Assembly (NCBI GenBank): GCA_031382385.1
Contig: JANMYS010000174.1
Coordinates: 10,568-74,567 of the forward strand
Reading direction: 5' to 3'
From: Gemmatimonadota bacterium
Lineage (GTDB): Bacteria; Gemmatimonadota; Gemmatimonadetes; Gemmatimonadales; GWC2-71-9
Length of the DNA stretch: 64,000 nt
The translations under genes were made by a program, and so were the position numbers. Under the pieces are notes generated by a model. That model had not been told where the DNA came from. It did not search any database and was given only the letters and a program-made list of their open reading frames with translations. Shown here in pieces: positions 18,686 to 34,618 of the stretch (the stretch's first letter is position 1; each line of letters starts with the position of its first letter).

Positions 18686-21600
18686 ATGCAGACCATGTCC
18701 GACCTCCCTGCAGGTACCGCACGCCGGGCGCTGCTCATCGGCATCGATGCCTATCCCAAGATTCGGCAGTTGTCGGGCTGCGTGAACGACGTGCGCCTCA
18801 TGCGCACGATCCTGCAGGACAACTTCGGCTTCGCGCCCGACACGATCACGGTGCTGGAGAACGGTGAGGCGACCCGAGCCGCCATTCTCGCCGCGTTCGA
18901 TGCGCTCATTGCCGCGACCGGACGCGACGACATCGTGGTGATCCACTTCGCCGGGCACGGGTCGCAGATGACCGACCTCGAGGGCGACGAGCCGAGCGGC
19001 CTGGACAGCACGATCATGCCGTTCGACACCGAGGGGTGGCAGGGGGACAACCGCGACATCACCGACGACGAGATCGGCCTGATGCTCGACGCGCTTGGAG
19101 CGCGGACCTCGTACATCACCCTCATCTTCGACTCGTGCCATTCGGGGACCATCACCCGCGACGCGGTCGGCGCCAATGGCCGCTCGGTCCAGGCGGACAC
19201 CCGCCCGGCGAGCGAGTTGAAGCGGCAGCCGGTCGCCGGCGTGGCGAGGGCGACGACGCGGTCGGCCGGTCCCAGCGGCTGGATGCCGATGACCGAGAAG
19301 TACGTGCTTATCTCCGGCTGCCGGGACGAGGAGACCTCATTTGAGTACCAGCCCCCCGAAGGCGAGGGCAAGGTCTCGCATGGGGCGCTCACCTACTTCC
19401 TCTCGCAGCAGCTGCGACAGGCGACCCCCGGGACGACCTACCGCGACATCTTCGAGCGCGCCGCCGCCCGGGTGAACGCGGTCAACAACGCCCAGCATCC
19501 GCAGATGGAGGGCAAGGCCGACCGCGAAATCTTCGGGGTCCGCGAGGTGACGCCGACGAAGTTCCTCCGCGTCACCGCCCGTGACGGCGGCACGGTGACA
19601 CTCTCGGCTGGCGCGGCACAGGGGGTCACCACCGGCTCGGTCTACGCCATCCACCCGCAGGGCACGAAGGACCCCGCCTCATCCTTTGCCCAGGGCGAAG
19701 CCGAGGTCACGGAAGTCGGTGTCGTCTCGTCCCAGGCCCGCATCACGAGCGAGGCCTCGGCGGGGACTATCACGCCGGATGCACGCGCCTTCGAGACCCG
19801 CCATGCCTTCGGGGACTTCCGGCTCGGCATCACCGTTCTCGATACCCCGGGCGCCGAGGCAGCCATGCTCCGCGCCCTGCTCGACGGCTCGACCCTGCTC
19901 AAGGTGCTCTCGGGTGGTGAGCCGGGGGCGGTCACCGTCCGGCTGCTGCCTGCCCGGGAACAGGTGGTGCAGACCGACCCGGTACCGCGGGCGGGAGCGC
20001 TCCGCGCCCCGATGTGGGCCAGCTTCGGCGAGACCGGTGACCTGCTCATGCCGCTCAAGGCGCTGGGCGATGAGAAGACGATCCGCGAAAACCTCGAAAC
20101 CCTCGCCCGCTTTCGTCAGGCGCTGGCACTGGAGAACCCCGATCCGGACAGCAAGCTCCGCGGGAAGTTCACCCTCGACCTCCTCAAGCAGGACGCGCAG
20201 GGGAAGTGGGTGGTGGCCGAGCCCGAAACGGCGGGAGGACAGATCGTCTACACCGAGGGCGACGCGATCGGCTTCCAGGTCAGCAGCCAGCACGACAGTC
20301 CGGTGTACACCGCTCTGGTGGATTTCGAGGTGACCGGCGCGGTGACCCCGCTCCGGCCGCCACGCCGGGCACCGGCGGCGCAGGAGAAACTCGGCGCCGG
20401 CATCACCTACAAGATCGGGCCGGAACTCAAGCAGGCGCCGCGCGTCACCTGGGACGCCGGCTTTCCCTTCATTGACAGCATCGATCACAGCCGGGAAGCC
20501 GAGGCGATCGAGACGGTGAAGCTGTTCATCACCGAGCAGCCCGCCGACTTCTCGGTGCTCGAGCAGAAGGGTGTGCGCGGCGACTCGGCGGGCAAGCCCA
20601 CGCCGCTCGGCAACCTGCTGCAGCGCGCCTTTCAGGGCAGCCCCACCCGGGGCATCGAGATGGCGCCCGCCGCCGAGGAGGACTGGACCACGGTCGCACG
20701 GTCGTTCGTAGTGCGGCGGCGAACCAGCGCGCCACTGCGCGAGGACGGGGCCGAGCTGGTGATCGGCGGGGCGACGCTCGCCACCAAGGGGCTCAGCGGC
20801 ACGGTCAGCACCTATTTCGGGAAGAAGGGGCGGGAGGAGGCGGAGCTGCTGGTCGGCAGTCCGCTGACCGCGGCACTGGCCGGCGCGGGCATCGACGTGC
20901 GCCAGACCGTCGCGATCGCGGGAGCGAAGGAGACCGGAGCGCCTACCCGGAGCGCCGGGGTGCAGCCGGCCTTCGAACTCAAGCTGTCCCACCCGGGCGA
21001 GGGCTTTGGCCAGATGGTCATGTCGGCCGATGAGCTGGGCGTCGTGTCGTGGCACTTCGCGCCGCCGGCTGCCGCCGCAGGAACCCGAGGCGGGGCGGGA
21101 TCGCCTTCGGCAACGCGAACCTATGTGATTCCTCGCGGGGTACCGGCGGAGCAGGCAGGGGGCGCCGCCACTCGCGGAATCGTCACGGCGATCGGCACCA
21201 AGCTGCTCAAGGAGATGGTCTTTCCGCTCATTGATCCGATCATCGGTGAGGTGAGCGCCACCTTCGTCAATCGGCTGGAACAGCATCGCTGGCCCTACCG
21301 TATCCGGGCCTTCGGCCCCGGCGACTTCACCACCGACACCGCCGCTCCGCTCGACGGCGAGGGCTGGTCCCGGCTGGCCGGCGGCCGGGCGCTCCTGATG
21401 GTGCACGGCACCTTCAGCCGGTCGCATCTTGCCTTCGGGCACCTGCCCGCGCCATACATGGAAGAACTGCACCGCCGCTACGGAGGGCGGGTCTTCGCCT
21501 TTGATCATTTCACGCTGTCGCATGATCCGCGGGAGAACGTGCGCCGGCTCCTGGCTGTGGTGCCCGAGGCCGCCTCGCTCGATCTCGACATCATCTGTCA

Positions 21601-22207
21601 CTCGCGTGGTGGCCTGGTGAGCCGGATGCTGAGCGAGAAGCAGAGCGAGTTCTCGCTGGGCAGCCGAAAGCTGCGGGTGGGTAAGGTCGTGTTCGTGGGC
21701 GCGCCGAACGCCGGGACCAGTCTGGCCGACCCGGCAAACCTGAACAACGTGCTCGACGTCTTCACCAACCTGCTCAATTTTCTGCCGGACAACGGCGTCA
21801 CCGATGTGATGACGATGATCGTCAGTGTGCTGAAGCAGGTCGCGACCGGCGCCATGGCGGGTCTCGAGGGGTTGCAGTCGATGCGCCCCGATGGCGAGTT
21901 CGCCAAGTGGATGAATACCGGGGCCCGCGTGGGCGACACGAAGTACTTCGCGCTGGCGGCCAACGTGACCCCAAAGGACCCGGGCCTGAAGCACTTCGTC
22001 CTCTCGCGCGGACTGAACTTGCTGATCAAGGGCGACAACGACCTGGTGGTGCCGACCAGGGGGGTCTTCGCCGAGAACGGGTCGGGCTTCTTCCCGATCG
22101 AGGAGAAGCTCGTGCTGGAGGGAGATGAGGCGGTGTCGCACACGAAGTATTTCGAGAATGCGGCGGTGCAGGGGAAGATCCTGGAATGGCTGGGCAGCGG
22201 TGCCTGA
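18686..22207 (+). CDS. Caspase-like (peptidase C14) protease fused to beta-rich middle modules and a C-terminal Ser-Asp-His alpha/beta-hydrolase (lipase/esterase-like)
   Basis: The N-terminus reads 'RRALLIGIDAY...CVNDV...VVIHFAGHGS' (His91, codon 18956) and 'LIFDSCHSG' (Cys151, codon 19136). The C-terminus reads 'LLMVHGTFS', 'DIICHSRGG' (Ser973, codon 21602), 'GDNDLVVP' (Asp1119) and 'VSHTKYF' (His1152). There is no signal peptide or TM segment. Confidence 0.9.
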   Translation: MQTMSDLPAGTARRALLIGIDAYPKIRQLSGCVNDVRLMRTILQDNFGFAPDTITVLENGEATRAAILAAFDALIAATGRDDIVVIHFAGHGSQMTDLEGDEPSGLDSTIMPFDTEGWQGDNRDITDDEIGLMLDALGARTSYITLIFDSCHSGTITRDAVGANGRSVQADTRPASELKRQPVAGVARATTRSAGPSGWMPMTEKYVLISGCRDEETSFEYQPPEGEGKVSHGALTYFLSQQLRQATPGTTYRDIFERAAARVNAVNNAQHPQMEGKADREIFGVREVTPTKFLRVTARDGGTVTLSAGAAQGVTTGSVYAIHPQGTKDPASSFAQGEAEVTEVGVVSSQARITSEASAGTITPDARAFETRHAFGDFRLGITVLDTPGAEAAMLRALLDGSTLLKVLSGGEPGAVTVRLLPAREQVVQTDPVPRAGALRAPMWASFGETGDLLMPLKALGDEKTIRENLETLARFRQALALENPDPDSKLRGKFTLDLLKQDAQGKWVVAEPETAGGQIVYTEGDAIGFQVSSQHDSPVYTALVDFEVTGAVTPLRPPRRAPAAQEKLGAGITYKIGPELKQAPRVTWDAGFPFIDSIDHSREAEAIETVKLFITEQPADFSVLEQKGVRGDSAGKPTPLGNLLQRAFQGSPTRGIEMAPAAEEDWTTVARSFVVRRRTSAPLREDGAELVIGGATLATKGLSGTVSTYFGKKGREEAELLVGSPLTAALAGAGIDVRQTVAIAGAKETGAPTRSAGVQPAFELKLSHPGEGFGQMVMSADELGVVSWHFAPPAAAAGTRGGAGSPSATRTYVIPRGVPAEQAGGAATRGIVTAIGTKLLKEMVFPLIDPIIGEVSATFVNRLEQHRWPYRIRAFGPGDFTTDTAAPLDGEGWSRLAGGRALLMVHGTFSRSHLAFGHLPAPYMEELHRRYGGRVFAFDHFTLSHDPRENVRRLLAVVPEAASLDLDIICHSRGGLVSRMLSEKQSEFSLGSRKLRVGKVVFVGAPNAGTSLADPANLNNVLDVFTNLLNFLPDNGVTDVMTMIVSVLKQVATGAMAGLEGLQSMRPDGEFAKWMNTGARVGDTKYFALAANVTPKDPGLKHFVLSRGLNLLIKGDNDLVVPTRGVFAENGSGFFPIEEKLVLEGDEAVSHTKYFENAAVQGKILEWLGSGA

Positions 22208-22452
22208 GCCGCTGGTAGCCGCCAAACCGACGGGGGGAAGCCGGTCAGGGGAGACGGGCGAGGCTGAACCCACCATGATCTGACCGGCGGCCGTGGCCGC
22301 GGACCACGCCCCCGACCTCTCTCCGGAGGCCGGGGGCTTCTATTTCCACCCGGCCGAGCGAACTCGCACGGGCCGACCGAAGGATGACGTGGGTTCGGGG
22401 TCCTGCCGGGCTCCCGATCCCGCTCTGCCGGTCGCCACCTCCCCCGGTCTGC

Positions 22453-22502
22453 TTGACAGGTCCGTGACTTTGGCGCATACTTTGTTCGCATACCGAACAA
22501 AG
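22453..22502 (+). promoter_or_regulatory. Candidate promoter (TTGACA-N17-CATACT) overlapping palindromic operator CTTTGTTC-N7-GAACAAAG (site 1)
   Basis: TTGACA is at 22453-22458, CATACT at 22476-22481, and the palindrome at 22480-22502. This is an AT-rich island about 75 bp upstream of the ATG at 22576. The same palindrome recurs at 37840-37862. Confidence 0.5.
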
Positions 22503-22575
22503 ATCAGGGTGCCGCCCGGCATCCTCGACCGCGCCCATGTCGGGATCTCCGCAGCCAACCTGGAGTAAAGAGAAG

Positions 22576-25500
22576 ATGCCCCCGAGAATCTCGTCAATTC
22601 GCGTCCTGGCGCTCGTCGGGATCGTCGCAGTGGGTGGTTGTACCCGGGATCTCGATACCCTTGGGCCGGCCCAGTTCCCGACCGATGCCGGCGTCTTCGC
22701 TGAGGGCCTGGCCTCGGGCGTCCGCTTCGAGGCGTTCAGCGGCGCGAAGCCCGATGCCATCAGTGACGACCCCAGCAACGCGCACAGCGGAGCGCTTGGG
22801 CTCAAGTTGACCGTCCCGGCGCCGGGGGATCCCTCCGGGAGCTACGCCGGCGGTGCCTTCATCGCCAATGTCCCTCGCGATCTCTCCGGCTACAACGCCC
22901 TGACCTTCTGGGCCAAGGCGAGCATCGCCGCCAGTCTCGATGTGGCTGGTCTGGGCAACGACAACACCGGCACCTCCAAGTACACCGCCCAGCAAACCGC
23001 CATCGCGCTGACGACCAGCTGGAAGAAATACACCATCCCGATTCCGCTCGCGGCCAAGCTCACCAAGGAAGGAGGGCTTTTCTTCTTTGCCGAGGGGCCG
23101 GAGAACGGGGCCGGGTACAGCATCTGGCTGGACGACATGCAGTTCGAGACGGTCACCACGATCACCAATCCCCGCCCCGTGATTGCGCCCGCGACGGTCT
23201 CCGATGAAGTCGGCGCCAGCCTGCGGGTGGGGGGCACCTCGGTGACCTTTGCGGTGGAAGGGGTTGACCAGACCCTGGTGGCCGCCCCGGCGTACTTCAC
23301 CTTTGTCTCTTCTGACGTGGCGGTGGCTACCGTGGCGCCGGACGGGCTGATCACGCTGGTCGGGTCCGGCAGCGCCTCCATCACTGCGCAGCTGGGCACG
23401 ACCCCGGCGACCGGTACCGTGACGCTGCTCTCTGTCGCTCCGCCGGCCGTGGCCGCGCCGGTGCCGACCGACTCCGCCGTCAACGTGATTTCCCTCTACA
23501 GCAACGCATACACCAACAACACGGTGGACACCTGGTCGGCCGGCTTTGACCAGGCCGACGTGGCCGATGTGCAGATCGCCGGCGACGACGCGAAGAAGTA
23601 CACCAATCTGGTCTTTGCCGGGATCGAGTTCATCACCCAGCAGGTCAATGCCACCGCGATGACCGGGTTCCACCTTGATCTCTTCGTCCAGAACGCCGGC
23701 CAGTTCAAGGTCAAGCTGGTGGACTTCGGCGCCAATGGCGCCTTTGGCGGTGGCGACGACTCCGAGCATGAGGTCACGCTGACGACGAGTTCCACGCCTG
23801 CCATCACCTCCGGGAGCTGGAGCAGTCTGGATATTCCCTTCTCCTCCTTTCCCGGCCTGACCTCGAGGGCGCATCTCGCCCAGATCATCATCTCCGGCTC
23901 GAGCAGCACGTTGTACCTGGATAACGTCTACTTCTTCAAGGGTTCCACGCCGCCGCCGCCGACCGGACCGACAGTCGCGGCGCCCACGCCGACTGTGGCC
24001 TCGGGCAGCGTGATCTCGCTGTTTAGCAACGCCTACACCAACGTCACCGTGGATACCTGGTCGGCGGTGTGGGACAACGCGGACGTGGCTGACGTCCAGG
24101 TGGCAGGCAACGACACCAAGAACTACACCAACCTGGTCTTCGCTGGCATCGAGTTCACCTCGGCGCCGGTGGATGCCTCGACGATGACCGCCTTCCACAT
24201 GGACATCTGGACCCCGGATCCGACCGCGGCACCGGCGGTGTTCAAGGTCAAGCTGGTGGACTTCGGGGCGAACGGCACCTTCGGCGGCGGTGACGACGTC
24301 GAGCACGAGCTCGCCTTTGACGCCACCACCACCCCGGCGCTTGCCACCGGCAACTGGGTGGGGATCGACGTCCCCCTGTCAGCCTTCACCGGCCTCACCA
24401 CCCGTGGCCACCTGGCTCAGATCGTCATCTCGGGTACGCTGGGCACGCTGTACATGGACAACGTCTACTTCTACGCCGGCGGAAGCCCGCCGACTTCTCC
24501 GCCCACCCCGGCGCCCACGCCCACGAAGCCGGCGGGCAACGTGATCTCGCTGTACAGCAACGCCTACACCAACGTCACCGTGGACACCTGGTCGGCGGTG
24601 TGGGACGTGGCCGACGTCGCGGATGTGCTGGTCGTTGGCAATGACGTGAAGCAGTACACCAACATGGTCTTTGCCGGCATCGAGTTCACCTCGGCGCCAG
24701 TGGATGCCTCGACCATGACCGGCTTCCACATGGACATCTGGACGCCAGATCCCACGACGACGGGTGCGGCGTTCAAGGTCAAGCTGGTGGACTTCGGGGC
24801 CGACGGTAGCTTCGGCGGTGGCGACGATGTGGAGCAGGAGCTGATGTTCACCAACGCGTCCACTCCGCCGCTCGCCACCGGCAGCTGGGTGGGGATCGAC
24901 GTTCCCCTGTCGGCCTTCACCGGCCTGGTGACCAGGGCCCACCTGGCCCAGATGGTCATCTCGGGAACGCTGAGCACGGTCTACGTCGACAACGTCTACT
25001 TCTATAACAGCGGCGGGGCACCGACGCTCTCGTCGATTGCCATCACGCCAAACCCGGTCAACCTCGTCCCGGCAGGGACCCAGCAGCTGACGGTGACCGG
25101 CACCTACAGCGACGCGTCGACCGCAAACCTCACTTCCGGTTCGACCTTCGGCTCCAGCGCGACGGGCGTCGCGACGGTCAGCAACGGGGGGCTTGTCACC
25201 GCGGTCGCCGTCGGCACGGCAACGATCACCGCCACCCACACGGCGTCCGGCCTGACGAACACCGTGACGGTGAACGTGGCGACCGGCAGCAGCGGCGGGC
25301 TGGTCTTCTTCGGCGGCTATGATCCCGGGGTGAGTTTCGTCGATTTCGGCGGGGCCACGAACAATGTCTCGATCGATGCGACGACGCCGAACAACGGCCG
25401 CTCCTCCTTGAAGGCCGTCATCACCGGGTCGGGCGGATACTCGGGCGGCGCCTTCGTGGCGTCCCTGCCGCGCAACCTCTCCTCCTTCAATGCCCTGACC

Positions 25501-26556
25501 TTCTGGGCCAGGGGGAGCACTACCAACGCCAGCCTCAAGGTCGGCATCGGCAACAACGGGACCAGTAACCTGCTCAACGCCGAAGCGATCGGCATTGCGC
25601 TCACGACGACCTTCACCAAGTACATCATCCCGCTGCCGGACCCCAGCAAGTTCACCAGCTACGACGGGCTGTTCCATTTCGCCGACGGGCCCAACAACTA
25701 CACCGTCTGGTTCAACGACGTGCAGTACGAGAACCTGCCTTCCAACCTTGTGGCACCGCCCACCGCTGCCCTGGCCGCCTGGCCGAGCCTGACGGTCGCG
25801 GTCGGTACGCCGGCGCAGATGAACCCGGCACCGAACACGGTCAACTGGACCGTGCCGGCGCTGCCCAACGGTGGCAAGCTGACCGATGTAGCCTGGCGCT
25901 GGTACACCCTCACCTCCAGCAACCCCAGCGTTGCCACGGTCAGCGCCGACGGACTGGTCACCGGCGTCTCGGGCGGAACGGCGAACATCACTGCCACCAT
26001 GAACGGCATCGTGGTCTCGGGGAACGCGCCCATCACGGTGACCGCGCCGCTGGGCGTGCCGACCACGATTGCCCCCACGCCGACGGTGAATCCGGCCAAC
26101 GTGATCTCGCTGTTCAGCAGCGCCTACACCAACGTGGGCGTGGACACCTGGCGGACCGGCTGGAGCAGCTGCTGCAACCAACTGGTCGACCCCTACGTGA
26201 TCAGCGGCCATGATGTGAAGCAGTACACCCTGGCCAATTTCGTCGGCGTCGAATTCGGGGTCACCCCCCTGGGGCTCAACACGGTGAACGCGACGACGAT
26301 GACCCACTTCCACGTGGACGTCTGGTCACCCAACCCGTCCAGCAATCTCGAGATCCAGCTCGTCAATGACGCAACCGGGTCAGCGGCGATCGGCCGCTAT
26401 CAGGCGGGGGCCACGGCGAGCGGCAGCTGGGTTTCCCTGGACATCCCGCTGTCGAGTTTCGCCGGGCTGAGCGCCAAGGACAAGCTGCAGCAGCTGCTCT
26501 TCGTCGCGGCGGGACCGACGGTGCTGTACATCGACAACGTCTACTTCCACAACTAG
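22576..26556 (+). CDS. Large surface lipoprotein with repeated putative carbohydrate-binding modules and Big_2 domains
   Basis: GGAG lies 10 nt before the ATG at 22576. The lipobox is 'LVGIVAVGGC'. There are two type-A jelly-roll-like modules ('YSGGAF.A..PR.LS..NALTFWA'). Four type-B modules run from 'VISL[YF]S.AYTN..VDTW' to 'LY.DNVYF'. Three Big_2-like segments are also present ('VAT V..DGL.T.V..G.A.ITA'). Confidence 0.85.
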   Translation: MPPRISSIRVLALVGIVAVGGCTRDLDTLGPAQFPTDAGVFAEGLASGVRFEAFSGAKPDAISDDPSNAHSGALGLKLTVPAPGDPSGSYAGGAFIANVPRDLSGYNALTFWAKASIAASLDVAGLGNDNTGTSKYTAQQTAIALTTSWKKYTIPIPLAAKLTKEGGLFFFAEGPENGAGYSIWLDDMQFETVTTITNPRPVIAPATVSDEVGASLRVGGTSVTFAVEGVDQTLVAAPAYFTFVSSDVAVATVAPDGLITLVGSGSASITAQLGTTPATGTVTLLSVAPPAVAAPVPTDSAVNVISLYSNAYTNNTVDTWSAGFDQADVADVQIAGDDAKKYTNLVFAGIEFITQQVNATAMTGFHLDLFVQNAGQFKVKLVDFGANGAFGGGDDSEHEVTLTTSSTPAITSGSWSSLDIPFSSFPGLTSRAHLAQIIISGSSSTLYLDNVYFFKGSTPPPPTGPTVAAPTPTVASGSVISLFSNAYTNVTVDTWSAVWDNADVADVQVAGNDTKNYTNLVFAGIEFTSAPVDASTMTAFHMDIWTPDPTAAPAVFKVKLVDFGANGTFGGGDDVEHELAFDATTTPALATGNWVGIDVPLSAFTGLTTRGHLAQIVISGTLGTLYMDNVYFYAGGSPPTSPPTPAPTPTKPAGNVISLYSNAYTNVTVDTWSAVWDVADVADVLVVGNDVKQYTNMVFAGIEFTSAPVDASTMTGFHMDIWTPDPTTTGAAFKVKLVDFGADGSFGGGDDVEQELMFTNASTPPLATGSWVGIDVPLSAFTGLVTRAHLAQMVISGTLSTVYVDNVYFYNSGGAPTLSSIAITPNPVNLVPAGTQQLTVTGTYSDASTANLTSGSTFGSSATGVATVSNGGLVTAVAVGTATITATHTASGLTNTVTVNVATGSSGGLVFFGGYDPGVSFVDFGGATNNVSIDATTPNNGRSSLKAVITGSGGYSGGAFVASLPRNLSSFNALTFWARGSTTNASLKVGIGNNGTSNLLNAEAIGIALTTTFTKYIIPLPDPSKFTSYDGLFHFADGPNNYTVWFNDVQYENLPSNLVAPPTAALAAWPSLTVAVGTPAQMNPAPNTVNWTVPALPNGGKLTDVAWRWYTLTSSNPSVATVSADGLVTGVSGGTANITATMNGIVVSGNAPITVTAPLGVPTTIAPTPTVNPANVISLFSSAYTNVGVDTWRTGWSSCCNQLVDPYVISGHDVKQYTLANFVGVEFGVTPLGLNTVNATTMTHFHVDVWSPNPSSNLEIQLVNDATGSAAIGRYQAGATASGSWVSLDIPLSSFAGLSAKDKLQQLLFVAAGPTVLYIDNVYFHN
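23485..25008 (+). repeat. Three tandem ~525-531-bp coding repeats (type-B modules B1-B3); a fourth dispersed copy starts at 26101
   Basis: The units start at 23485, 24010 and 24541. B2 and B3 are visibly about 85-90% identical at the DNA level over long stretches (by eye, not computed). Confidence 0.85.
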
Positions 26557-26808: not shown

Positions 26809-26819
26809 GAGAGGCTACG

Positions 26820-28046
26820 ATGGCCGAATCGACGCTGGCGAAGGCCGGTACCATGCGACCGCGCTCGCTCGCCGATGCAGTGCTGCACCTCATCTGGGAG
26901 CAGCGTCGCATCTCGCGGGCGGAGATTGCCCGCCGTCTGGATCTCTCGCGCTCGACAGTGTCGGAAGTCGTCACCATGCTGCTGGCGACCCGGCTGGTCG
27001 CCGAGGCGGGTGTGGGAGCATCCCGGGGCGGACGCCGCCCGATCGTGCTGGAATTTCAGGACGACGCCTGCCCCATTCTGGGTGTGGATATCGGGGCGTC
27101 GCATGTGTCGGTCGTCCTGACCGATCTCCGCGGCCAGGTGCTCCATTGGGAGCATCGTGACCACCCGGTCCGGGCTGACCCCGATGGGACGCTGGCCCTC
27201 GTCGCCGAGTTCTGCCGGTCCTGTCTGGCAAGCTGGAAGGGACGCCGGCGGCAACTGGTGGGCATCGGTGTCGCGGTGCCGAGTCCGGTGGATATCCGGT
27301 ACCCGGATCGGCTCTCTGCCGTCGCGCTCCCGGCCTGGCAGGGACGCAGCTGGCAGAAGGAACTGGTGGCCCAGTTCGACGTGCCGGTGCTGGTGGACAA
27401 CGATGCGAATCTCGGCGCGCTGGCCGAGCACTGGTGGGGCGCCGGACGCGGGCTGGACGATTTCGCCTACATCAAGATGGCCACCGGCATCGGGTCGGGG
27501 CATTTCGTCGGCGGCCGGATCTATCGCGGTGCGAGCGGGGTGGCGGGGGAGATCGGCCACCTGACCATCGATCCTCGAGGAGAGCTGTGCGGCTGCGGCA
27601 ATCGCGGGTGCCTGACAACGTTCGTCGGCACCCAGGCGCTGGTGACGCTTGCCACGAAGCTGCTGCCTGATTTTCCCGAGAGCACGCTCCACGGCACCAG
27701 GCTGACCATCACCGCCATTGAGGACGCGGCCCTCGCCGACGACCCGCTGGCCCTGCAGGTCGCACATACGGCGGCGCAGCACCTCGGGACCGCGGTGGCC
27801 GGTCTGCTCAACCTGATGAACCCCTCTGCCGTCATCCTGGGCGGAGGATTCACCCGGCTCGGGGAGCGACTGATCGGCCCGCTCCGGGAGACGGTGTACC
27901 GGCGCACCTTCGTGGGCTCGCTGGCCGCCTCCGGGATCCGGACCAGCCAGCTGGGGCCCCAGGATATCGCCATCGGGGCAGCGACCATGGTGCTCGATGC
28001 CGCCCTGACCGATCCGACCCTGTTTCCGACCGCTGGAGCGCGTTAG
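26820..28046 (+). CDS. ROK-family transcriptional regulator (NagC/XylR-like)
   Basis: The N-terminal wHTH is 'ISRAEIARRLDLSRSTVSEVVTMLL'. The ROK sugar-kinase-like core includes 'GVDIGASHVSVVL', 'DNDANLGALAE' and the Zn motif 'GHLTIDPRGELCGCGNRGCL'. Confidence 0.9.
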   Translation: MAESTLAKAGTMRPRSLADAVLHLIWEQRRISRAEIARRLDLSRSTVSEVVTMLLATRLVAEAGVGASRGGRRPIVLEFQDDACPILGVDIGASHVSVVLTDLRGQVLHWEHRDHPVRADPDGTLALVAEFCRSCLASWKGRRRQLVGIGVAVPSPVDIRYPDRLSAVALPAWQGRSWQKELVAQFDVPVLVDNDANLGALAEHWWGAGRGLDDFAYIKMATGIGSGHFVGGRIYRGASGVAGEIGHLTIDPRGELCGCGNRGCLTTFVGTQALVTLATKLLPDFPESTLHGTRLTITAIEDAALADDPLALQVAHTAAQHLGTAVAGLLNLMNPSAVILGGGFTRLGERLIGPLRETVYRRTFVGSLAASGIRTSQLGPQDIAIGAATMVLDAALTDPTLFPTAGAR

Positions 28047-28068: not shown

Positions 28069-28896
28069 ATGAAGCAACACATCCTGATCCTCGCGGCGGC
28101 AATCGTCGGCATGAACAGTTGCCTCACCGAGCCGAAGCCATTTGCTGTTCTCGATCTGGCCTGGGAAGACAATTTTGATGGGCAGGCAGGGGATCTGCCG
28201 AACCCCGCCAACTGGAAGTTCCAGCTCGGGACTGACTGGGGCAATCAGGAACTCCAGTGCTACACCGACCGGTCGACCAACGCCGCGCTGGACGGCGCCG
28301 GCAATCTGGTGATCACGGCCCGTGCGGAGTCCTATTCCGGACCTGCGTCAGGGATTAGCGGCATTCCCTGTACAGCGAACGGCTACACCTCGGCCCGGCT
28401 GACCACCGAGGGCATCCACGAACAGCAGTACGGGCGGTTCGAGGCGCGGATCAAGATCCCGACCAGCACCGGCATCTGGCCCGCCTTCTGGATGCTTGGC
28501 GCGAATCTGCCCACGGTGAGCTGGCCCAGGGCGGGCGAAATCGACATCCTGGAGAACTTCGGCCGGACACCCAGCTCGGTGTTTGCCTGCCTGCACGGAC
28601 CACGGTATTCGGGGTCGAATTGCCTCACCCGGCGGTATGACCTGCCGTCCGGCCGGTTCGACGCCGACTTCCACATCTTTGCCGTGGAGTGGACCAAGGA
28701 CCGGATCAACTGGTTCGTGGACAGCACGCTGTACCATTCCATCAAGCCGACCTACGCCCCGGGCGAGTGGGTCTTCGATCGTCCGTTCTATCTGATTCTC
28801 AACCTCGCCGTCGGCGGCGGCCCACCGGGCCCGCCGAACGGCACCGCCTTCCCGCAGCAGATGGTTGTTGACTGGGTCCGGGTGTACAAGCCGTGA
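28069..28896 (+). CDS. GH16 endo-beta-1,3(4)-glucanase (laminarinase-like), lipoprotein
   Basis: The lipobox is 'AAAIVGMNSC'. The GH16 catalytic motif is 'GEIDILE' (ExDxxE). 'WPAFWMLG' and 'FAVEW..DRI.WFVD' are also present. Confidence 0.92.
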   Translation: MKQHILILAAAIVGMNSCLTEPKPFAVLDLAWEDNFDGQAGDLPNPANWKFQLGTDWGNQELQCYTDRSTNAALDGAGNLVITARAESYSGPASGISGIPCTANGYTSARLTTEGIHEQQYGRFEARIKIPTSTGIWPAFWMLGANLPTVSWPRAGEIDILENFGRTPSSVFACLHGPRYSGSNCLTRRYDLPSGRFDADFHIFAVEWTKDRINWFVDSTLYHSIKPTYAPGEWVFDRPFYLILNLAVGGGPPGPPNGTAFPQQMVVDWVRVYKP

Positions 28897-30443
28897 GCCT
28901 CCGCTCCCGCCTGAGCGGCGTCGCCCGGCTGGCCCTGGCCGCCTGGCATTCGCGGATCCCGCCGCTTACCGGCGAGAACCGCATCGCCCACTACCAGACT
29001 GCGCCGGAAGACCGCATCTCCTTCCCGCGCAAGCTGGCCTACGGGATGGGCGCCTTTGTGAACAACCTGCTGGCGGCGGCGATCGGGGGGATGATCGTCA
29101 TCCTGAACCTCGGGCTGGGAATGAACCCCGCCCTGGTCGGCCTGCTCGGGGCCATTCCCCGGGTCACTGATGCGCTGATCGATCCGCTGATGGGTTACAT
29201 CTCGGACAATACCCGGTCGCGCTGGGGCCGCCGCCGGCCCTACATCTTCGTCGGCGCCATCCTCTGCGGAATCACCTACGTCATTCTCTGGCACCTGCCG
29301 CCCGGGCGGAGCGAGAGTTTCTACGCCTGGTATTTCCTGGGCTTCTCGATGCTGTTTTATGTGGCGTACACGATCTTCGCCGCGCCGTGGGTCGCCCTGG
29401 GCTACGAACTCACCCCCGACTACCATGAGCGCACCCGGCTCATGGGCGTCCAGAACTTCATCGGTCAGCTGGCGTATGTGGTGTCGCCCTGGTTCCTCTG
29501 GATCATGACCCACAAGGCCTGGTTTCCCGATCCGGCGACCGGGGCGCGCGGATTGTCGATCGCCATCGCCATCGTGACCGTCGGCGTCGGGGTACTCCCG
29601 GCGATCTTCCTCCGGGAACGGTTCAAGCATATCGCGGAAGCGGAACGGGCCGGGGTCGCCCGGGAGTCGGGCGCGGCAGCGCTGCGGCGGAACCTGGCTG
29701 AGTTCTTTCACGGATTCGCCACCACGCTCCGCTCGAAGCCGTTTCGCAAGCTGTGCACCGCGACCTTCCTGGTGTTCAACGGCTTCATCATGATCTCGTC
29801 GTTCCAGCTCTACGTGATCATCTATTACGTCTTCCGCGGCGACAAGGAGCTGGGCGCGAAGTACGCCGGCTACGCCGGCACGCTCGGCGCCGTCTCCACT
29901 TTCGGGGTGATCTACTTCATCACCTGGCTGGGGTGCCAGATCGGCAAGCGGCGCGCCTTTATCGTCTCGACCTCGATCTCGATTATCGGATACGGGCTGA
30001 AATGGTTCTGCTACAGTCCCGAGCACCCGATGCTGCTCCTCCTGCCCGTGCCCCTTATGGCCTTCGGGCTCGGCGGGCTGTTCACGCTGATGGGCTCGAT
30101 GATCGCCGACGTGGTGGACGTCGACGAACTGGAAACCAGGCAGCGACGTGAAGGGATGTTCGGGGCGATCTACTGGTGGGTCGTCAAGCTCGGCATGGCA
30201 GCCGCGCTGGCCGGCGGCGGGTTCCTGCTCAACGCCACCGGGTTCGACGTTGCGCTGGTCGGGGAACAGACGGCCCGGACGATCATCCTGCTGCGGTTGT
30301 CTGACGCGTTGATCCCGATGATCGCGTCGGGAGTCGCGATCTGGGTCTTCTCCACGTATCACATCACGGAGGAGCGGGCCCACGAGGTCCGCCAGGAGCT
30401 CGAACGTCGGCGGGGCAAGCCGGCTGAGGCGCTGGCGACGTAG
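28893..30443 (+). CDS. GPH-family (MelB/GusB-like) glycoside:cation symporter
   Basis: The GTG start overlaps the GH16 stop (GTGA). 'RVTDALIDPLMGYISDNTRSRWGRRRPYI' is the GPH signature. About 12 hydrophobic segments are present. Confidence 0.9.
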   Translation: MSLRSRLSGVARLALAAWHSRIPPLTGENRIAHYQTAPEDRISFPRKLAYGMGAFVNNLLAAAIGGMIVILNLGLGMNPALVGLLGAIPRVTDALIDPLMGYISDNTRSRWGRRRPYIFVGAILCGITYVILWHLPPGRSESFYAWYFLGFSMLFYVAYTIFAAPWVALGYELTPDYHERTRLMGVQNFIGQLAYVVSPWFLWIMTHKAWFPDPATGARGLSIAIAIVTVGVGVLPAIFLRERFKHIAEAERAGVARESGAAALRRNLAEFFHGFATTLRSKPFRKLCTATFLVFNGFIMISSFQLYVIIYYVFRGDKELGAKYAGYAGTLGAVSTFGVIYFITWLGCQIGKRRAFIVSTSISIIGYGLKWFCYSPEHPMLLLLPVPLMAFGLGGLFTLMGSMIADVVDVDELETRQRREGMFGAIYWWVVKLGMAAALAGGGFLLNATGFDVALVGEQTARTIILLRLSDALIPMIASGVAIWVFSTYHITEERAHEVRQELERRRGKPAEALAT

Positions 30444-30460: not shown

Positions 30461-30492
30461 AAAAAAACCGCCGCGATTACGGCGGTTTTTTT
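30461..30492. terminator. Bidirectional intrinsic terminator between convergent genes
   Basis: AAAAAAA-CCGCCG-CGATTA-CGGCGG-TTTTTTT is a perfect 6-bp stem flanked by an A7 tract and a T7 tract. It lies between the stops at 30443 (+) and 30515 (-). Confidence 0.8.
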
Positions 30493-30514: not shown

Positions 30515-32311
30515 CTACCCGATCTTGAGCCCGAAGCCGAGCGGGAAGAGCGGGGTCTTCGGCTCGCTGACGCTGGTGGGCCAGGCGAATGAGAGCGTGC
30601 CCTGGAAATCGTGGTCGCCGAACAGCACGTCGGCCACCCCCTGGCCCTCCGAACCCGGAAGCCAGGCGGCCACGAAGGCCGCGGCCTCGGCGAGTTCCTG
30701 GTTGATCACGAGCGGCCGGCCCGAGACCAGCACGACCACCACGGGAATCTTCCGGGCGGTGATGGTCCGGATGGTCGCCAGGTCTTCCGGATGCAGCTCG
30801 GCTAGCTCGAATGTCGTCCCGTAGGCCGGCAGCTTGGCCGTGCGGCCGCCACCTCCCGAGCCCGCTCCCACCAGATCCGAGGACCGGATGTCGCCGAAGC
30901 CCTCCGCGTACGGCTTCTCCCCGATCACCACGATTGCGACGTCATGCTCTGTCCGATCTGCGGCGGTGCCGTCGACGCTCAGGACCGCGCCGGGAGCCGC
31001 CGCGCGGATCCCTTCCCAGATCGACGTGCCGCCGATGATGAAGTCGTTGCCCGAGGTCCCCTGCCACGCCACGGTGAAGCCGCCGCACTGGTGCCCCCGG
31101 TTGTCCGCGTTCTTGCCGGCGACCAGGATGCGCGCGTTGCGCTTCAGCGGCAGGAGACCGCCGGTGTGCTTGAGCAATACCAGTGATTTGCGGACTGCCT
31201 CTCGTGCCACCTCCCGATGCTCCTTTGCCCCGAGACAGTCACGACGGGACCAGTACCGCTCCGCCGGCCGGGGCCGGTCAAACAGGCCGTACTGGAATTT
31301 CACCCGGAGTATCCGCCGGACCGCATCGTCGATCCGCTCCAGCGGCACCACTCCACTGGCGACGTGCGCCATCAGCTGCTTGAGGCAGCGGCGCCAGTCC
31401 ATCGACACCATGAACATGTCGATCCCGGCGTTGGCGGCCATTGCCACCGCCTCGGCGTAGTCCTCGGAGAGATAGTCAGCGCCGTCCCAGTCGGAGATCA
31501 CGAACCCGGTGAAGCCCAGCCGGTCTTTCAGGACGTCGGTGAGCAGGTAGCGGTGGCCGTGGCACTTCTTGCTGTTCCAGCTGTTGAACGAGGCCATCAC
31601 AGTCAGCACACCCTCGGCCAGCGCGGGGAGGTAAGGCGCGATGTGGACGCGCGACAGCTCCTCCTCCGGCAGGATGGTGTTGCCCTGGTCCTTCCCGCCG
31701 TCGGTGCCGCCGTCACCGACCCAGTGCTTGACGCAGGCGACCACGCTGTCGCGGCCGAGGTCGCCCTGGAGGCCGCGAACGAAGCGGCCGGCGTACGACC
31801 TGACCAGCGCAGTTTCCTCCGAGTAGCTCTCGTAGGTCCGGCCCCAGCGGATGTCGCGGGCCACGGCCAGGGTGGGCGCGAAGGTCCACTCTACCCCGGT
31901 CGCGAGAATCTCGCGGGCGGTCGCCTGGCCGATGCGTTCCACAAGATCGGGGTCGTGCGCCGCGCCGAGGCCGATGTTGTGGGGGAAGACCGTCGCCCCC
32001 AGCACATTGGCGTGCCCGTGGATGGCGTCGACACCATAGAGCAGCGGAATCGCCAGCCGGCCGCCGTCGGTGCTCATCGATGCGAGCCAGTACGCATCAT
32101 TCATGGCGATCCAGTCGGCCGGCCGGTTCTGCCCCGGGGTGGACCCGCCGCCGCTCAGGATCGAGCCGAGGTGATGGGCCTTCAGATCGTCCGGAGTGGC
32201 GGCCATCCGTTCGGTCTGGATCATCTGGCCGACCTTCTGGTCCAGGGACATCCGGGCCAGCAGCTGCTCGACCTTGTGCGAGATCGCGTTGTCGTCGGTA
32301 GATGCGCTCAT
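30515..32311 (-). CDS. GH3 beta-glucosidase / exo-beta-glucanase, cytoplasmic (no signal peptide)
   Basis: The ATG at 32311 was verified. Motifs are 'SLDQKVGQM', 'LLYGVDAIHGH', 'RWGRTYESYSE', 'KHWVGDGGT' and 'GFVISDWDG' (nucleophile Asp). Confidence 0.92.
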   Translation of the reverse strand: MSASTDDNAISHKVEQLLARMSLDQKVGQMIQTERMAATPDDLKAHHLGSILSGGGSTPGQNRPADWIAMNDAYWLASMSTDGGRLAIPLLYGVDAIHGHANVLGATVFPHNIGLGAAHDPDLVERIGQATAREILATGVEWTFAPTLAVARDIRWGRTYESYSEETALVRSYAGRFVRGLQGDLGRDSVVACVKHWVGDGGTDGGKDQGNTILPEEELSRVHIAPYLPALAEGVLTVMASFNSWNSKKCHGHRYLLTDVLKDRLGFTGFVISDWDGADYLSEDYAEAVAMAANAGIDMFMVSMDWRRCLKQLMAHVASGVVPLERIDDAVRRILRVKFQYGLFDRPRPAERYWSRRDCLGAKEHREVAREAVRKSLVLLKHTGGLLPLKRNARILVAGKNADNRGHQCGGFTVAWQGTSGNDFIIGGTSIWEGIRAAAPGAVLSVDGTAADRTEHDVAIVVIGEKPYAEGFGDIRSSDLVGAGSGGGGRTAKLPAYGTTFELAELHPEDLATIRTITARKIPVVVVLVSGRPLVINQELAEAAAFVAAWLPGSEGQGVADVLFGDHDFQGTLSFAWPTSVSEPKTPLFPLGFGLKIG

Positions 32312-32328
32312 GGTGGCGTCTTGGGGTT

Positions 32329-34569
32329 TCACGAAGAGTGGGAGTTGGTGAGGACAAAGTCGGTGCGCAGGTCCGCGGTGGAATTCCCGCCGATCCATGC
32401 ATGGAACTGCCCGGGTTCGATCGTGAGCCGCATGGTGCGGCCGTAGAATGCGAGGTCGCTGGCCGTCAGGCGAAAAGATATTGTCCGCTGCTCTCCCGGA
32501 GCGAGGCGCACCTTCTCGAAGGCCTTGAGCTCGCGCACTGGCCGGGTCACGCTGGCGGCCAGGTCCCGCAGGTAGAGCTGGACCACTTCCTCGGCCTCCC
32601 GTTCACCGCGGTTGGTGACATCGGCGGTGAGGACGATGGTATCGTCCATGGTCATCACCGGATTGCTGACCCGGATGTTCGCGTACTCGAAGACCGTGTA
32701 GGAGAGACCGAATCCGAACGGGAACAGGGGGGTGTAACTCACATCGAGATGAAACGAGGTGTTCCCGACCGAGAGCTGTGGGGCCCGGGCCTCGATGTCA
32801 TCGATGTGGGCAAAGGTCTCCGGCGTCGGTGGTTTGCCGGTGTGCTTGTGAGCGTAGTAGATCGGGATCTGTCCCGTGACTCGCGGGAAGGTGACGGGGA
32901 GCCTGCCCGAGGGCACGGCGATGCCGAAGAGAAGGTCGGCGATTGCCGGTCCACCCATGGTGCCAGGGTGCCAGGCATAGAGCAGCGCCTGGACGTGGCC
33001 CAGAATGCGCTCCAGCGCGAGTGGCCGGCCGGCCATCAGGACGAGGACGATAGGCTTGCCCGTAGCGGCGACGGCGGCGATCAGCTCCTCCTGCGCACCG
33101 GGCAGCCCGATGTCGGCGCGGCAGTGGGCCTCGCCCGACAGGATGGCTTCCTCGCCCAGGAACAGAATGACCGCGTCGGACCGTTCCGCCAGTGCGACGG
33201 CATCGGAGAAGCCGGACCGGTCCCGGCTGCGCGTCGTCTCGAGCCCCCGGACATGCTCGACGCTGACCCGGTCGCCCAGCAGTTCTCGGATCGATTGCAG
33301 CGCGGTCCGGCTGTGCCGTGCGTCGCCGTCAAAGATCCAGGTCCCCAACTGCTCATGCGGATCGTCGGCCAGCGGCCCGATCACGGCCAGGGTCTGCAGC
33401 GACTCGGCGGACAGCGGCAGGGTGCCATGGTCATTCTTGAGCAGCACCATGCTTTCGACGGCGGCTTCACGCGCGGCCCGGAGGTGTTCGGGATTGGCGG
33501 CGACCGGAAACTGGCCGGGATCGGTATACGGGCTGTCGAAGAGCCCGAGGCGCAACTTGGTGCGGAGCACATTCCCCGCCATGGTGTCGAGCTGCACGGA
33601 TGAAATGCGCCCCTCCTGGACCAGCGACAGGAGGTGGTCGGCGTAGGTGGTGCTGTTCATCTCCACGTCGCACCCGGCGTTGGCCGCCTCGTAGGCGGAC
33701 TCCCGATCGTCAGCGGTCAGGCCATGCACGGCCAGCTGACGAACCGAATCCCAGTCGCTCACCACGAAGCCGTCGTAGTGCCACTCGTCGCGCAGGATGC
33801 CCTTGAGCAGCATCTCGTTGCCGGTGGCGGGCACGCCGTTGAGATCGCTGAACGAAGTCATGATGCTCGCTGCCCCGGCATCCACCGCCGCCTTGAACGG
33901 CGGGAGGTGGACGTTGCGCAACTCATGCTCGGGAATGTTCGTCGTGTTGTAGTCCTTGCCGCTTTCGCATGCACCATAGCCCGCGAAGTGCTTGGCACAG
34001 GCGGCAATGCTGCCGGGCTCGGAGAGCCGCTCGCCCTGGAAGCCGGAGACCATCGCGGCACCGAGCAGGCTGGTCAGCCAGGGGTCCTCCCCCAGCGACT
34101 CCGCCACCCGCCCCCAGCGGGGGTCGCGAGCGATATCGATCATCGGGGCGAAGGTCCAGTTCACCCCCGAGGCGGCGGCCTCGAGCGCGGCGATCCGTGC
34201 TCCGCGCGCGATGAGATCGGGATTCCAGGATGCGGCCTGACCCAGCGGGATGGGAAAGACGGTGGTGAAGCCGTGAATGACGTCCCGGCCGATCAGGAGG
34301 GGAATCCCGAGCCGGCTCTCTTCCACCGCGATGCGCTGCAGCTCGTTGACCGTCTCCACCTGAACTTCGTTCAGGATGGCCCCGACCCGCCCCTCACGCA
34401 GGGCCTGGTGCAGGTGATCGGGCACCGCTCCCCCCGCCGCCGGCACCAGCGCCAGCTGGCCGATCTTCTCCTCCAGCGTCATCTGTCGCAGCAGCTCGTC
34501 GATCCGCTGCTCGAGGAGTGCCGGATCGTCCGCCGGCTCGCTCAGGTCGGTAACCGGGCCCGTTGCCAT
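32329..34569 (-). CDS. bglX: GH3 beta-glucosidase BglX-like with a C-terminal Fn3-like domain, cytoplasmic
   Basis: The ATG at 34569 was verified. Motifs are 'TLEEKIGQL', 'IGRDVIHG', 'DPRWGRVAESLGEDP', 'KHFAGYG', 'GFVVSDWDS' and 'VVQLYLRD...ELKAFEKV.L.PGE'. Confidence 0.92.
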   Translation of the reverse strand: MATGPVTDLSEPADDPALLEQRIDELLRQMTLEEKIGQLALVPAAGGAVPDHLHQALREGRVGAILNEVQVETVNELQRIAVEESRLGIPLLIGRDVIHGFTTVFPIPLGQAASWNPDLIARGARIAALEAAASGVNWTFAPMIDIARDPRWGRVAESLGEDPWLTSLLGAAMVSGFQGERLSEPGSIAACAKHFAGYGACESGKDYNTTNIPEHELRNVHLPPFKAAVDAGAASIMTSFSDLNGVPATGNEMLLKGILRDEWHYDGFVVSDWDSVRQLAVHGLTADDRESAYEAANAGCDVEMNSTTYADHLLSLVQEGRISSVQLDTMAGNVLRTKLRLGLFDSPYTDPGQFPVAANPEHLRAAREAAVESMVLLKNDHGTLPLSAESLQTLAVIGPLADDPHEQLGTWIFDGDARHSRTALQSIRELLGDRVSVEHVRGLETTRSRDRSGFSDAVALAERSDAVILFLGEEAILSGEAHCRADIGLPGAQEELIAAVAATGKPIVLVLMAGRPLALERILGHVQALLYAWHPGTMGGPAIADLLFGIAVPSGRLPVTFPRVTGQIPIYYAHKHTGKPPTPETFAHIDDIEARAPQLSVGNTSFHLDVSYTPLFPFGFGLSYTVFEYANIRVSNPVMTMDDTIVLTADVTNRGEREAEEVVQLYLRDLAASVTRPVRELKAFEKVRLAPGEQRTISFRLTASDLAFYGRTMRLTIEPGQFHAWIGGNSTADLRTDFVLTNSHSS

Positions 34570-34618
34570 GGCAGAAATTGGTCGGGATTCTCGGCGGCTG
34601 GACCGAGCCGCCGGTGTC

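What the first reader, a model, noticed from the sequence alone, without database searches (positions are those of the whole stretch)
22453..22502. Shared 23-bp palindromic operator CTTTGTTC-N7-GAACAAAG, site 1, overlapping a TTGACA-N17-CATACT promoter
Seen: 22480-22502 reads CTTTGTTC-GCATACC-GAACAAAG. The same perfect 8-bp arms with a 7-nt spacer recur at 37840-37862 (CTTTGTTC-GGGTAGA-GAACAAAG). By eye these are the only two such sites in the window. Both are AT-rich islands in GC-rich intergenic DNA. Each lies 60-75 bp upstream of the first gene of one arm of the glucan locus. Each is preceded, in the direction of transcription, by a perfect TTGACA hexamer 20-22 nt away, so the palindrome would cover the -10/+1 region. 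Established: ROK-family repressors (NagC, Mlc, XylR) bind ~23-25-bp AT-rich palindromes. As I recall, the B. subtilis XylR operator contains TTTGTT/AACAAA-type arms. Inference: these are the operators of the locus-encoded ROK regulator (26820-28046) and define a two-promoter regulon.
Basis: partly seen in the sequence, partly recalled or inferred. Interest (0 to 1): 0.55.

Follow-up and report, generated by a model that had tools for sequence, protein, structure and literature searches.

The report
ROK repressor operators, beta-glucan locus
Two identical 23-25 bp palindromes sit on the core promoters of two convergent beta-1,3-glucan utilisation operons in a Gemmatimonadota genome and are almost certainly the binding sites of the sugar-sensing ROK repressor encoded in the locus: a well-supported but ordinary kind of sugar-operon switch, described here in a little-studied phylum.

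Summary
CTTTGTTC-N7-GAACAAAG occurs at 22480-22502 and 37840-37862 and nowhere else in the window, even with 3 mismatches (0 expected). Comparison with more than 20 related Gemmatimonadota loci (ROK 60-77% identical) refines the motif to A-CTTTGTTCG-N5-CGAACAAAG-T. In otherwise diverged intergenic DNA, the palindrome, a CTTGACAG -35 box 19-22 nt upstream and an A/T-anchored -10 that overlaps the left arm are the only conserved blocks. They lie upstream of the same operons:
- lipoprotein-ROK-GH16-MFS
- GHx-GH3-GH3, or GH1-GHx in some relatives
- in one relative, SusC/SusD-like genes, a sugar transporter and the ROK gene itself.

About 70 Streptomyces ROK loci have no site. The seven hits in distant ROK loci all lie within 250 bp of the ROK gene, whatever the neighbouring genes. 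Changes in the two arms are independent, so this is a DNA site and not an RNA hairpin. The geometry matches validated ROK operators: 23 bp, TT/AA at +/-5,6, and C/G at +/-11 together with a GGRR linker. The best reading is a sugar-released ROK repressor that occludes -10/+1 of two strong promoters and is autoregulated. Binding, the effector and the transcription starts are inferred, not shown. This is a new member of a known kind, of modest interest.

The parts
22452..22459 (+). -35 box CTTGACAG of the plus-strand operon promoter
   Evidence: Perfect TTGACA. CTTGACAG is conserved 21 nt upstream of the palindrome in orthologous loci.
22476..22481 (+). -10 hexamer CATACT (17-nt spacer); its last two bases are the first two of the operator
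   Evidence: CAT(A/T)CT is conserved in 11 orthologous promoters.
22479..22503 (.). Operator 1: A-CTTTGTTCG-CATAC-CGAACAAAG-A. Predicted ROK dimer binding site, spanning about -9 to +15.
   Evidence: 39.9 bits.
22576..26556 (+). Lipoprotein with repeated Big_2 Ig-like modules (1326 aa), first gene of the plus-strand operon; probably a surface glycan-binding protein
   Evidence: Lipobox LVGIVAVGGC read from the sequence. Orthologues carry the same operator upstream.
26820..28046 (+). ROK-family transcriptional regulator (408 aa): winged HTH, SRGGRRP linker, ROK sugar-binding domain with the CxCGxxGC zinc motif
28069..28896 (+). GH16 endo-beta-1,3-glucanase (laminarinase type), with a lipoprotein signal
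28893..30443 (+). MFS_2 (glycoside-pentoside-hexuronide type) sugar transporter
30467..30486 (.). Bidirectional intrinsic terminator shared by the two convergent operons
   Evidence: hairpin with a T run on both strands.
30515..32398 (-). GH3 beta-glucosidase. ORF coordinates; the true start is probably the internal ATG.
32329..34629 (-). GH3 beta-glucosidase with Fn3-like domain. ORF coordinates; the true start is probably the ATG near 34569.
34619..37780 (-). GHx: secreted 1053-aa protein with a distant clan GH-A TIM barrel, first gene of the minus-strand operon
   Evidence: Conserved synteny.
37839..37863 (.). Operator 2: on the minus strand A-CTTTGTTCT-CTACC-CGAACAAAG-T. Predicted ROK binding site.
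   Evidence: 37.7 bits.
37859..37864 (-). Weak -10 hexamer CACTTT (17-nt spacer); four of its six bases are operator bases
   Evidence: (C/T)ACT(T/A)T is conserved in the 13 promoters that have a 19-nt gap.
37882..37888 (-). -35 box CTTGACA of the minus-strand operon promoter
   Evidence: Conserved 19 nt upstream of the palindrome in orthologous loci.

Best explanation
The two palindromes are operators of the locus-encoded ROK repressor. Each lies immediately downstream of a perfect sigma-70-type -35 box and overlaps the -10 hexamer and the predicted transcription start. A bound ROK dimer would therefore block RNA polymerase at both promoters.

One promoter drives lipoprotein-ROK-GH16-MFS, so the repressor would be negatively autoregulated by co-transcription. 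The other drives GHx-GH3-GH3. The predicted pathway is as follows. Secreted or lipid-anchored GH16, GHx and the Big_2 lipoprotein would cut beta-1,3-glucan. The MFS_2 carrier would import the oligosaccharides. The two GH3 enzymes, which lack signal peptides, would convert them to glucose. A cytoplasmic sugar (laminaribiose or another beta-glucoside, or glucose) would bind the ROK domain and release the repressor.

Shown: the motif, its uniqueness, its conservation at orthologous promoters, its linkage to ROK genes, its overlap with conserved promoter elements, and the absence of RNA-type covariation.

Inferred: binding by this protein, repression rather than activation, the effector, the transcription starts and the operon boundaries.
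For: 1. The motif is unique and far beyond chance.

2. It is a phylogenetic footprint. In Gemmatimonadota loci whose ROK is 60-77% identical, the palindrome is kept upstream of the orthologous first genes while the flanking DNA has diverged completely. Positions not used in the search (G9/C15 and the flanking A/T) are also conserved.

3. It is linked to the regulator. Of 34 hits at 12 bits or more in 2.26 Mb of ROK-centred loci, 27 are in orthologous loci. The other 7 lie within 250 bp of a distant ROK gene that sits next to different cargo genes (ABC sugar-binding proteins, a dehydrogenase). About 70 Streptomyces ROK loci have none. In L008 the ROK gene has its own perfect operator.

4. The targets form one coherent pathway: GH16 laminarinase, GH3 and GH1 beta-glucosidases, MFS, SSF and Sugar_tr transporters, and SusC/SusD-like proteins.

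5. Promoter overlap: TTGACA with at most 1 mismatch lies 19-22 nt upstream in 23 of 25 Gemmatimonadota sites, followed by an A2/T6-anchored -10 that ends inside the left arm. Only 3 CTTGACA occur in the window; two of them are these boxes.

6. Family geometry: validated ROK operators are 23-bp palindromes (PMC3553997). NagC/Mlc operators have invariant TT/AA at +/-5,6, and C/G at +/-11 is read by a GGRR linker (PMC4288165). This motif has TT/AA at +/-5,6 and C/G at +/-11, and the protein's linker is SRGGRRP.

7. There is no compensatory change between the arms: 84.6% of cells paired against 84.3% in shuffles.
Against: There is no experimental binding, footprint or transcription start for this system. 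The loci compared were chosen because they contain a ROK gene, so in the close relatives the motif is linked to the whole locus as well as to the regulator; only the distant loci separate the two. The -10 at site 2 is weak (CACTTT), and Gemmatimonadota promoter rules are not established. The 264-bp gap between the lipoprotein gene and the ROK gene could hold a separate promoter, so autoregulation by co-transcription is unproven. The rest of the genome could not be scanned.
Confidence: 0.85

Rival explanations
1. The palindrome is the operator of another transcription factor encoded elsewhere in the genome, for example a global carbon regulator. The ROK protein would act at a different, unrecognised site or only as a sugar sensor or kinase.
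For: Binding has not been shown. In close relatives the motif co-occurs with the whole glucan locus, not only with the ROK gene.
Against: In distant loci with unrelated cargo genes the motif still lies within 250 bp of the ROK gene. No other regulator gene lies between 22576 and 37780. The geometry fits ROK operators. The recognition helix LSRSTVSE and the SRGGRRP linker are conserved together with the motif.
Confidence: 0.07
2. The ROK protein binds these sites but acts as an activator or a dual regulator rather than a simple repressor.
For: NagC and Mlc relatives can activate some promoters (general knowledge of the family, not tested here). The -10 at site 2 is weak, which could call for help from an activator.
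Against: The sites lie downstream of the -35 box and cover -10/+1 in 23 of 25 cases, which is a repressor position. Both -35 boxes are perfect. The characterised sugar-catabolic ROK regulators XylR, BglR, ChiR and CsnR are repressors (PMC3553997).
Confidence: 0.05
3. The inverted repeat works at the RNA level, as a 5'-UTR hairpin that affects stability, attenuation or translation, and not as a DNA operator.
For: If transcription starts inside the left arm, part of the repeat is transcribed. The arms could form a 9-bp stem.
Against: There is no covariation: the arms change independently, and the paired fraction equals the shuffled control. The primary sequence itself is conserved across 60%-identical orthologues. 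The predicted start lies inside the left arm, so a full stem would not be transcribed. The site lies 59-73 nt from the start codon and is not followed by a T run.
Confidence: 0.03

Closest known systems
Thermotoga maritima BglR (TM0032), ROK repressor of laminarin/beta-glucoside utilisation (PMC3553997)
   Same: A ROK regulator encoded inside a beta-glucan locus that contains a GH16 laminarinase and a GH3 beta-glucosidase. It has a 23-bp palindromic operator in the promoter region. It is autoregulated and is released by glucose or cellobiose in EMSA.
   Different: The operator sequence is unrelated (AATTTCTTTCTGAGGAAGATAGA against ACTTTGTTCG-N5-CGAACAAAGT). The phylum differs, and BglR's locus uses an ABC transporter rather than an MFS carrier. 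Orthology was not tested. The effector of the present protein is unknown.
Escherichia coli NagC and Mlc operators (PMC4288165)
   Same: A 23-bp dyad with TT/AA at +/-5,6. As at high-affinity NagC sites, +/-11 is C/G and the linker carries GGRR. NagC is the best-scoring NCBIfam model for the protein.
   Different: The protein is far below the NagC and Mlc equivalog cut-offs (198 bits against 650; 161 against 530). It controls beta-glucan genes, not GlcNAc or PTS genes. There is no pair of operators placed for DNA looping: the two sites are 15 kb apart.
Firmicute XylR (ROK) operators, e.g. Anaerocellum bescii xylA TTAGTTTGTTTA-A-TAAACAAACTAA and the Bacillus-type xyl operator GTTAGTTTATTGGATAAACAAACTAA used in xylose-inducible expression cassettes (PMC12285236, PMC10486305)
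   Same: The half-site shares the core TTTGTT/AACAAA followed by (G/C)T. The repressor operator lies over a sugar-operon promoter.
   Different: Here the shared core lies 2 bp further from the dyad in each half, 4 bp overall. The inner positions are TCG/CGA instead of TTA/TAA. The targets are glucan genes, not xylose genes. Among solved structures, a chain named XylR (4ija) is only a weak, partial match (80 bits).

Membership tests
ROK-family sugar-responsive repressor with cognate operator | The regulator has an N-terminal winged HTH fused to a ROK (NBD/HSP70-fold) sugar-binding domain with the CxCGxxGC zinc motif. | tested here: met
   Pfam ROK 8.9e-54 plus HTH_24/MarR hits at residues 21-55. 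GHLTIDPRGELCGCGNRGCL is present. Full-length matches to the repressor structures Lmo0178, VC2007 and Mlc.
ROK-family sugar-responsive repressor with cognate operator | A Gly/Arg-rich linker (wing) with a GR pair follows the HTH. | tested here: met
   GVGASRGGRRPIVLE. It is conserved in all Gemmatimonadota orthologues. The rule comes from PMC4288165.
ROK-family sugar-responsive repressor with cognate operator | The operator is a palindrome of about 23 bp with TT/AA at +/-5,6 from the dyad. | tested here: met
   Matrix from 26 sites: T6, T7 / A17, A18 around the centre at position 12, with C1/G23 at +/-11. Compared with PMC3553997 Table 1 and PMC4288165.
ROK-family sugar-responsive repressor with cognate operator | The operator lies in the promoters of sugar-catabolic genes next to the regulator gene and co-evolves with the regulator. 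| tested here: met
ROK-family sugar-responsive repressor with cognate operator | The protein binds the operator specifically, and a sugar effector releases it. | not testable with these tools
   Needs EMSA, fluorescence polarisation or a footprint with purified protein, with and without sugars.
NagC or Mlc orthologue | Score above the NCBIfam equivalog cut-off. | tested here: not met
   NagC 198.2 bits against a cut-off of 650; Mlc 161.4 against 530.
Firmicute XylR-type operator | Half-sites GTTTGTTTA/TAAACAAAC placed symmetrically about a 1-3 nt centre; xylose genes as targets. | tested here: not met
   The same AACAAA core is offset 2 bp outward in each half. The targets are GH16, GH3 and MFS genes, not xylAB.
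Structured RNA hairpin (5'-UTR element or terminator) | Base pairing is maintained by compensatory changes. | tested here: not met
   Two cells with a change on both sides against 2.0 in shuffles; 84.6% of cells paired against 84.3%.
Sigma-70-type promoter | A -35 TTGACA and a -10 TAnnnT-like hexamer 16-18 nt apart, conserved in orthologues. | tested here: met
   Site 1 matches 10 of 12 positions. The -35 box is conserved in 23 of 25 sites, and A2/T6 of the -10 is conserved in both spacing classes. The transcription start has not been mapped.

The most novel reading that the evidence does not exclude
The outer half-site CTTTGT/ACAAAG at +/-6 to +/-11 may be an ancient recognition code shared by a cross-phylum clade of ROK regulators: Gemmatimonadota, at least one Anaerolineae MAG, and several unassigned metagenome contigs with 36-46% identical ROKs. 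Firmicute XylR would use the same AACAAA core set 2 bp closer to the dyad. If so, ROK dimers tolerate a 4-bp change in half-site spacing, and this family would be a natural system for studying how the wing/linker and the HTH divide recognition between them. In addition, the two promoter registers (19-nt and 21-nt gaps) show the operator's left arm doubling as the -10 element. In L087, L090 and L091 the arm deviates to CTATGTTC, which improves the -10 to CACTAT.
Probability: 0.3. Interest if true: 0.45.

Novelty: new member of a known kind. Interest (0 to 1): 0.33.

Why it matters
Gemmatimonadota are abundant in soil and hard to culture, and almost nothing is known about how they regulate transcription. 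This finding gives a concrete, testable regulator-operator-promoter set for a beta-1,3-glucan (laminarin or fungal-wall glucan) utilisation system. It also gives a first view of housekeeping-type promoter elements in the phylum. The resulting motif can be used to annotate the regulon in metagenome-assembled genomes and to flag co-regulated proteins of unknown function, namely the 1053-aa GHx and the Big_2 lipoprotein. Mechanistically it is a textbook repressor-over-promoter arrangement.

Tried and rejected
- LexA/SOS box: rejected. The Gram-positive-type box is GAAC-N4-GTTC (from my own knowledge). Here the arms are in the opposite order (GTTC-N7-GAAC) and the targets are sugar genes.
- RNA hairpin: tested by pair counting and rejected.
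- Weaker extra operators in the window, including the 264-bp gap upstream of the ROK gene (26557-26819): none found. The best other score was 2.8 bits.
- A third CTTGACA at 7595-7601 (-): it lies inside a coding ORF and is not a promoter.
- Literature search for the motif string together with ROK, and for Gemmatimonas glucan regulation: nothing relevant.
- A search for the Lmo0178-DNA structure paper found nothing usable.
- GHx family assignment: only weak clan GH-A hits from phmmer and a profile search against the PDB. Structure prediction was not run, because the orthologue alignment contains locus-derived sequences that the tool does not accept.
- Whole-genome regulon scan: not possible.

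Full report
**Observation**

The window reads CTTTGTTCGCATACCGAACAAAG at 22480-22502 and CTTTGTTCGGGTAGAGAACAAAG at 37840-37862. A search of both strands with up to three mismatches returns only these two, and none of 100 dinucleotide-preserving shuffles gave any match. From base composition (67% G+C) I estimate about 1e-6 exact matches per 64 kb.

Site 1 has 9-bp arms and a 5-nt spacer. At site 2 the ninth pair is broken.

The promoter claim holds in part:
- TTGACA-N17-CATACT at 22453-22481 matches 10 of 12 consensus positions.
- At site 2 the TTGACA is at 37887-37882 on the minus strand, 19 nt before the palindrome. With a 17-nt spacer the -10 is a weak CACTTT.

**Context**

Homologues of the regulator are named Gemmatimonadota. 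Pfam gives the following layout.

Plus strand:
- a Big_2 lipoprotein, 22576-26556
- a ROK regulator with an N-terminal winged HTH, 26820-28046
- a GH16 enzyme, 28069-28896
- an MFS_2 transporter, 28893-30443

Minus strand, converging on the plus-strand genes:
- a 1053-aa protein with a weak GH2_C TIM-barrel hit ('GHx'), 37780-34619
- two GH3 enzymes, 34629-32329 and 32398-30515

A bidirectional terminator lies between the two arms at 30467-30486. The GH16 enzyme is closest to solved beta-1,3-glucanases and laminarinases, and the GH3 enzyme to beta-glucosidases. 'Glucan locus' is therefore justified, and more precisely it is a beta-1,3-glucan locus. Each palindrome lies upstream of the first gene of one arm, by 73 and 59 nt.

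**Comparative test**

I fetched 160 loci centred on ROK homologues from genome and metagenome collections and three more through exact-protein look-ups.

In Gemmatimonadota loci whose ROK is 60-77% identical, the palindrome recurs with at most 3 mismatches. It lies upstream of the lipoprotein orthologue and upstream of the GHx arm. L004, L005, L007 and L163 have the same two-site architecture as the window.

Variants of the locus keep the same logic:
- In L087, L090 and L091 a GH1 beta-glucosidase precedes GHx and carries the site.
- In L090 a relocated MFS gene has its own site.
- In L006 a site lies between a sodium:solute symporter gene and a GH2_C-like gene.
- In L008 perfect sites precede a SusC-like/SusD pair, the ROK gene itself and a sugar transporter.

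A matrix built from 26 sites gives A-CTTTGTTCG-N5-CGAACAAAG-T. Positions 9/15 and the flanking A/T were not part of the search pattern, yet they are conserved.

With this matrix, only the two reported sites score in the window: 39.9 and 37.7 bits, against 2.8 for the next best position. Across 2.26 Mb of loci there are 34 hits at 12 bits or more:
- 27 are in orthologous loci.
- 7 are in distant ROK loci (31-47% identity), and every one lies within 250 bp of the ROK gene. There the neighbours are ABC sugar-binding proteins or a dehydrogenase, not glucan genes.
- About 70 Streptomyces ROK loci have none.

The motif therefore follows the regulator and not only the cargo genes. This is the strongest computational evidence available that the ROK protein is what binds it.

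**Promoter overlap**

I aligned the upstream regions on the palindrome. Only three conserved blocks appear in otherwise unalignable DNA: CTTGACAG, a short -10 element and the palindrome. TTGACA with at most 1 mismatch lies 19-22 nt upstream in 23 of 25 Gemmatimonadota sites.

There are two registers:
- With a 21-nt gap (mostly lipoprotein promoters) the -10 is CAT(A/T)CT in most, (C/G)AT(A/T)CT overall. It ends on operator bases 1-2.
- With a 19-nt gap (all GHx-arm promoters) the -10 is (C/T)ACT(T/A)T, whose last four bases are operator bases 1-4.

In L087, L090 and L091 the arm reads CTATGTTC. This weakens the operator but improves the -10 to CACTAT.

The window contains only three CTTGACA. 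Two are these -35 boxes and the third is intragenic.

The operator therefore spans roughly -9 to +15, which is a repressor position.

**DNA site or RNA structure**

Counting pairs over 28 aligned sites shows that the arms vary independently. 84.6% of cells are paired against 84.3% in shuffles, and there is no excess of double changes. This is what is expected of a protein-read palindrome and not of a hairpin under selection.

**Comparison with known systems**

- All seven Thermotoga maritima ROK regulators tested bind 23-bp palindromes near their target genes. BglR, the laminarin/beta-glucoside regulator, is released by glucose and cellobiose (PMC3553997).
- In NagC/Mlc operators the only invariant positions are TT/AA at +/-5,6. 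C/G at +/-11 is read by a linker with Gly at position 15, as in GGRR (PMC4288165). The present motif has TT/AA at +/-5,6 and C/G at +/-11, and the protein's linker is SRGGRRP. This is consistent with the rule but is not proof.
The Anaerocellum bescii XylR site is TTAGTTTGTTTA-A-TAAACAAACTAA, and the Bacillus-type xyl operator used in xylose-inducible expression cassettes is GTTAGTTTATTGGATAAACAAACTAA. The shared AACAAA core lies 2 bp closer to the dyad there.
- The protein is not a NagC or Mlc equivalog.

**Mechanism proposed**

Without inducer, a ROK dimer occupies both operators and blocks two promoters that have perfect -35 boxes. With beta-1,3-glucan present:
- Basal levels of secreted or lipid-anchored GH16, GHx and the Big_2 lipoprotein generate oligosaccharides.
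- The MFS_2 carrier imports them.
- The cytoplasmic GH3 enzymes hydrolyse them.
- A cytoplasmic sugar (laminaribiose or another beta-glucoside, or glucose) releases the repressor.

The ROK gene lies in the first operon and has no operator of its own in the 264-bp gap upstream. Autoregulation would therefore be through co-transcription. In L008 it is direct.

Binding, the effector, the transcription starts and the operon structure are all inferences.

**Verdict**

This is a new member of a known kind: a ROK repressor with its operator, in a phylum where I found no such regulon described. Interest is modest.

Noticed in passing
window 34619-37780 (-): GHx is a secreted 1053-aa protein and the first gene of the minus-strand operon. 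It has only a weak GH2_C TIM-barrel hit. phmmer finds no PDB relative, and a profile of 7 orthologues gives only weak clan GH-A matches (beta-galactosidase barrel 8e-6; GH158 6pal 0.009). The C-terminal part, about 650 aa, has no annotation. It is conserved in synteny across Gemmatimonadota glucan loci and may be an undescribed glycoside hydrolase family.
   Followed up: partly
window 22576-26556 (+); L161 6660-9851; L163 7531-9981; L008 4754-9638: The first gene of the plus-strand operon is a lipoprotein built of repeated Big_2 modules. Its length varies from about 650 to 1326 aa among orthologues. In L008 its position is taken by a SusC-like TonB-dependent receptor plus a SusD-like protein under the same operator. 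This suggests that it is the glycan-capture component.
   Followed up: partly
L038 9855-9887; L094 5076-5098; L108 9856-9878; L130 8232-8254; L133 4831-4853: ROK genes only 36-46% identical, one of them in an Anaerolineae MAG, carry CTTTGT-N11-ACAAAG-type palindromes 120-240 bp upstream of the ROK gene. They sit next to ABC sugar-binding protein genes or a dehydrogenase gene. The outer half-site appears to be shared by a wider ROK clade.
   Followed up: partly
L087 6741-6763, L090 18563-18585, L091 16775-16797: In the GH1-GHx promoters the promoter-proximal arm reads CTATGTTC instead of CTTTGTTC. This turns the overlapping -10 from CACTTT into CACTAT, an apparent trade-off between operator strength and promoter strength.
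   Followed up: no
window 30467-30486: A hairpin flanked by an A run and a T run lies between the MFS stop codon and the GH3 stop codon. It looks like a bidirectional terminator shared by the convergent operons.
   Followed up: no
window 18686-22207 (+) and 38244-39239 (+): The locus is flanked by a 1173-aa protein with a Peptidase_C14 (caspase) domain and DUF7379, and by a Ser/Thr protein kinase. Neither carries the operator.
   Followed up: no
window 26557-26819: The gap between the lipoprotein gene and the ROK gene is 264 bp, unusually long; the orthologous loci examined have about 100-150 bp. It contains no operator, no consensus promoter and no terminator hit. Whether it holds a weak constitutive promoter for the repressor is open.
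   Followed up: partly
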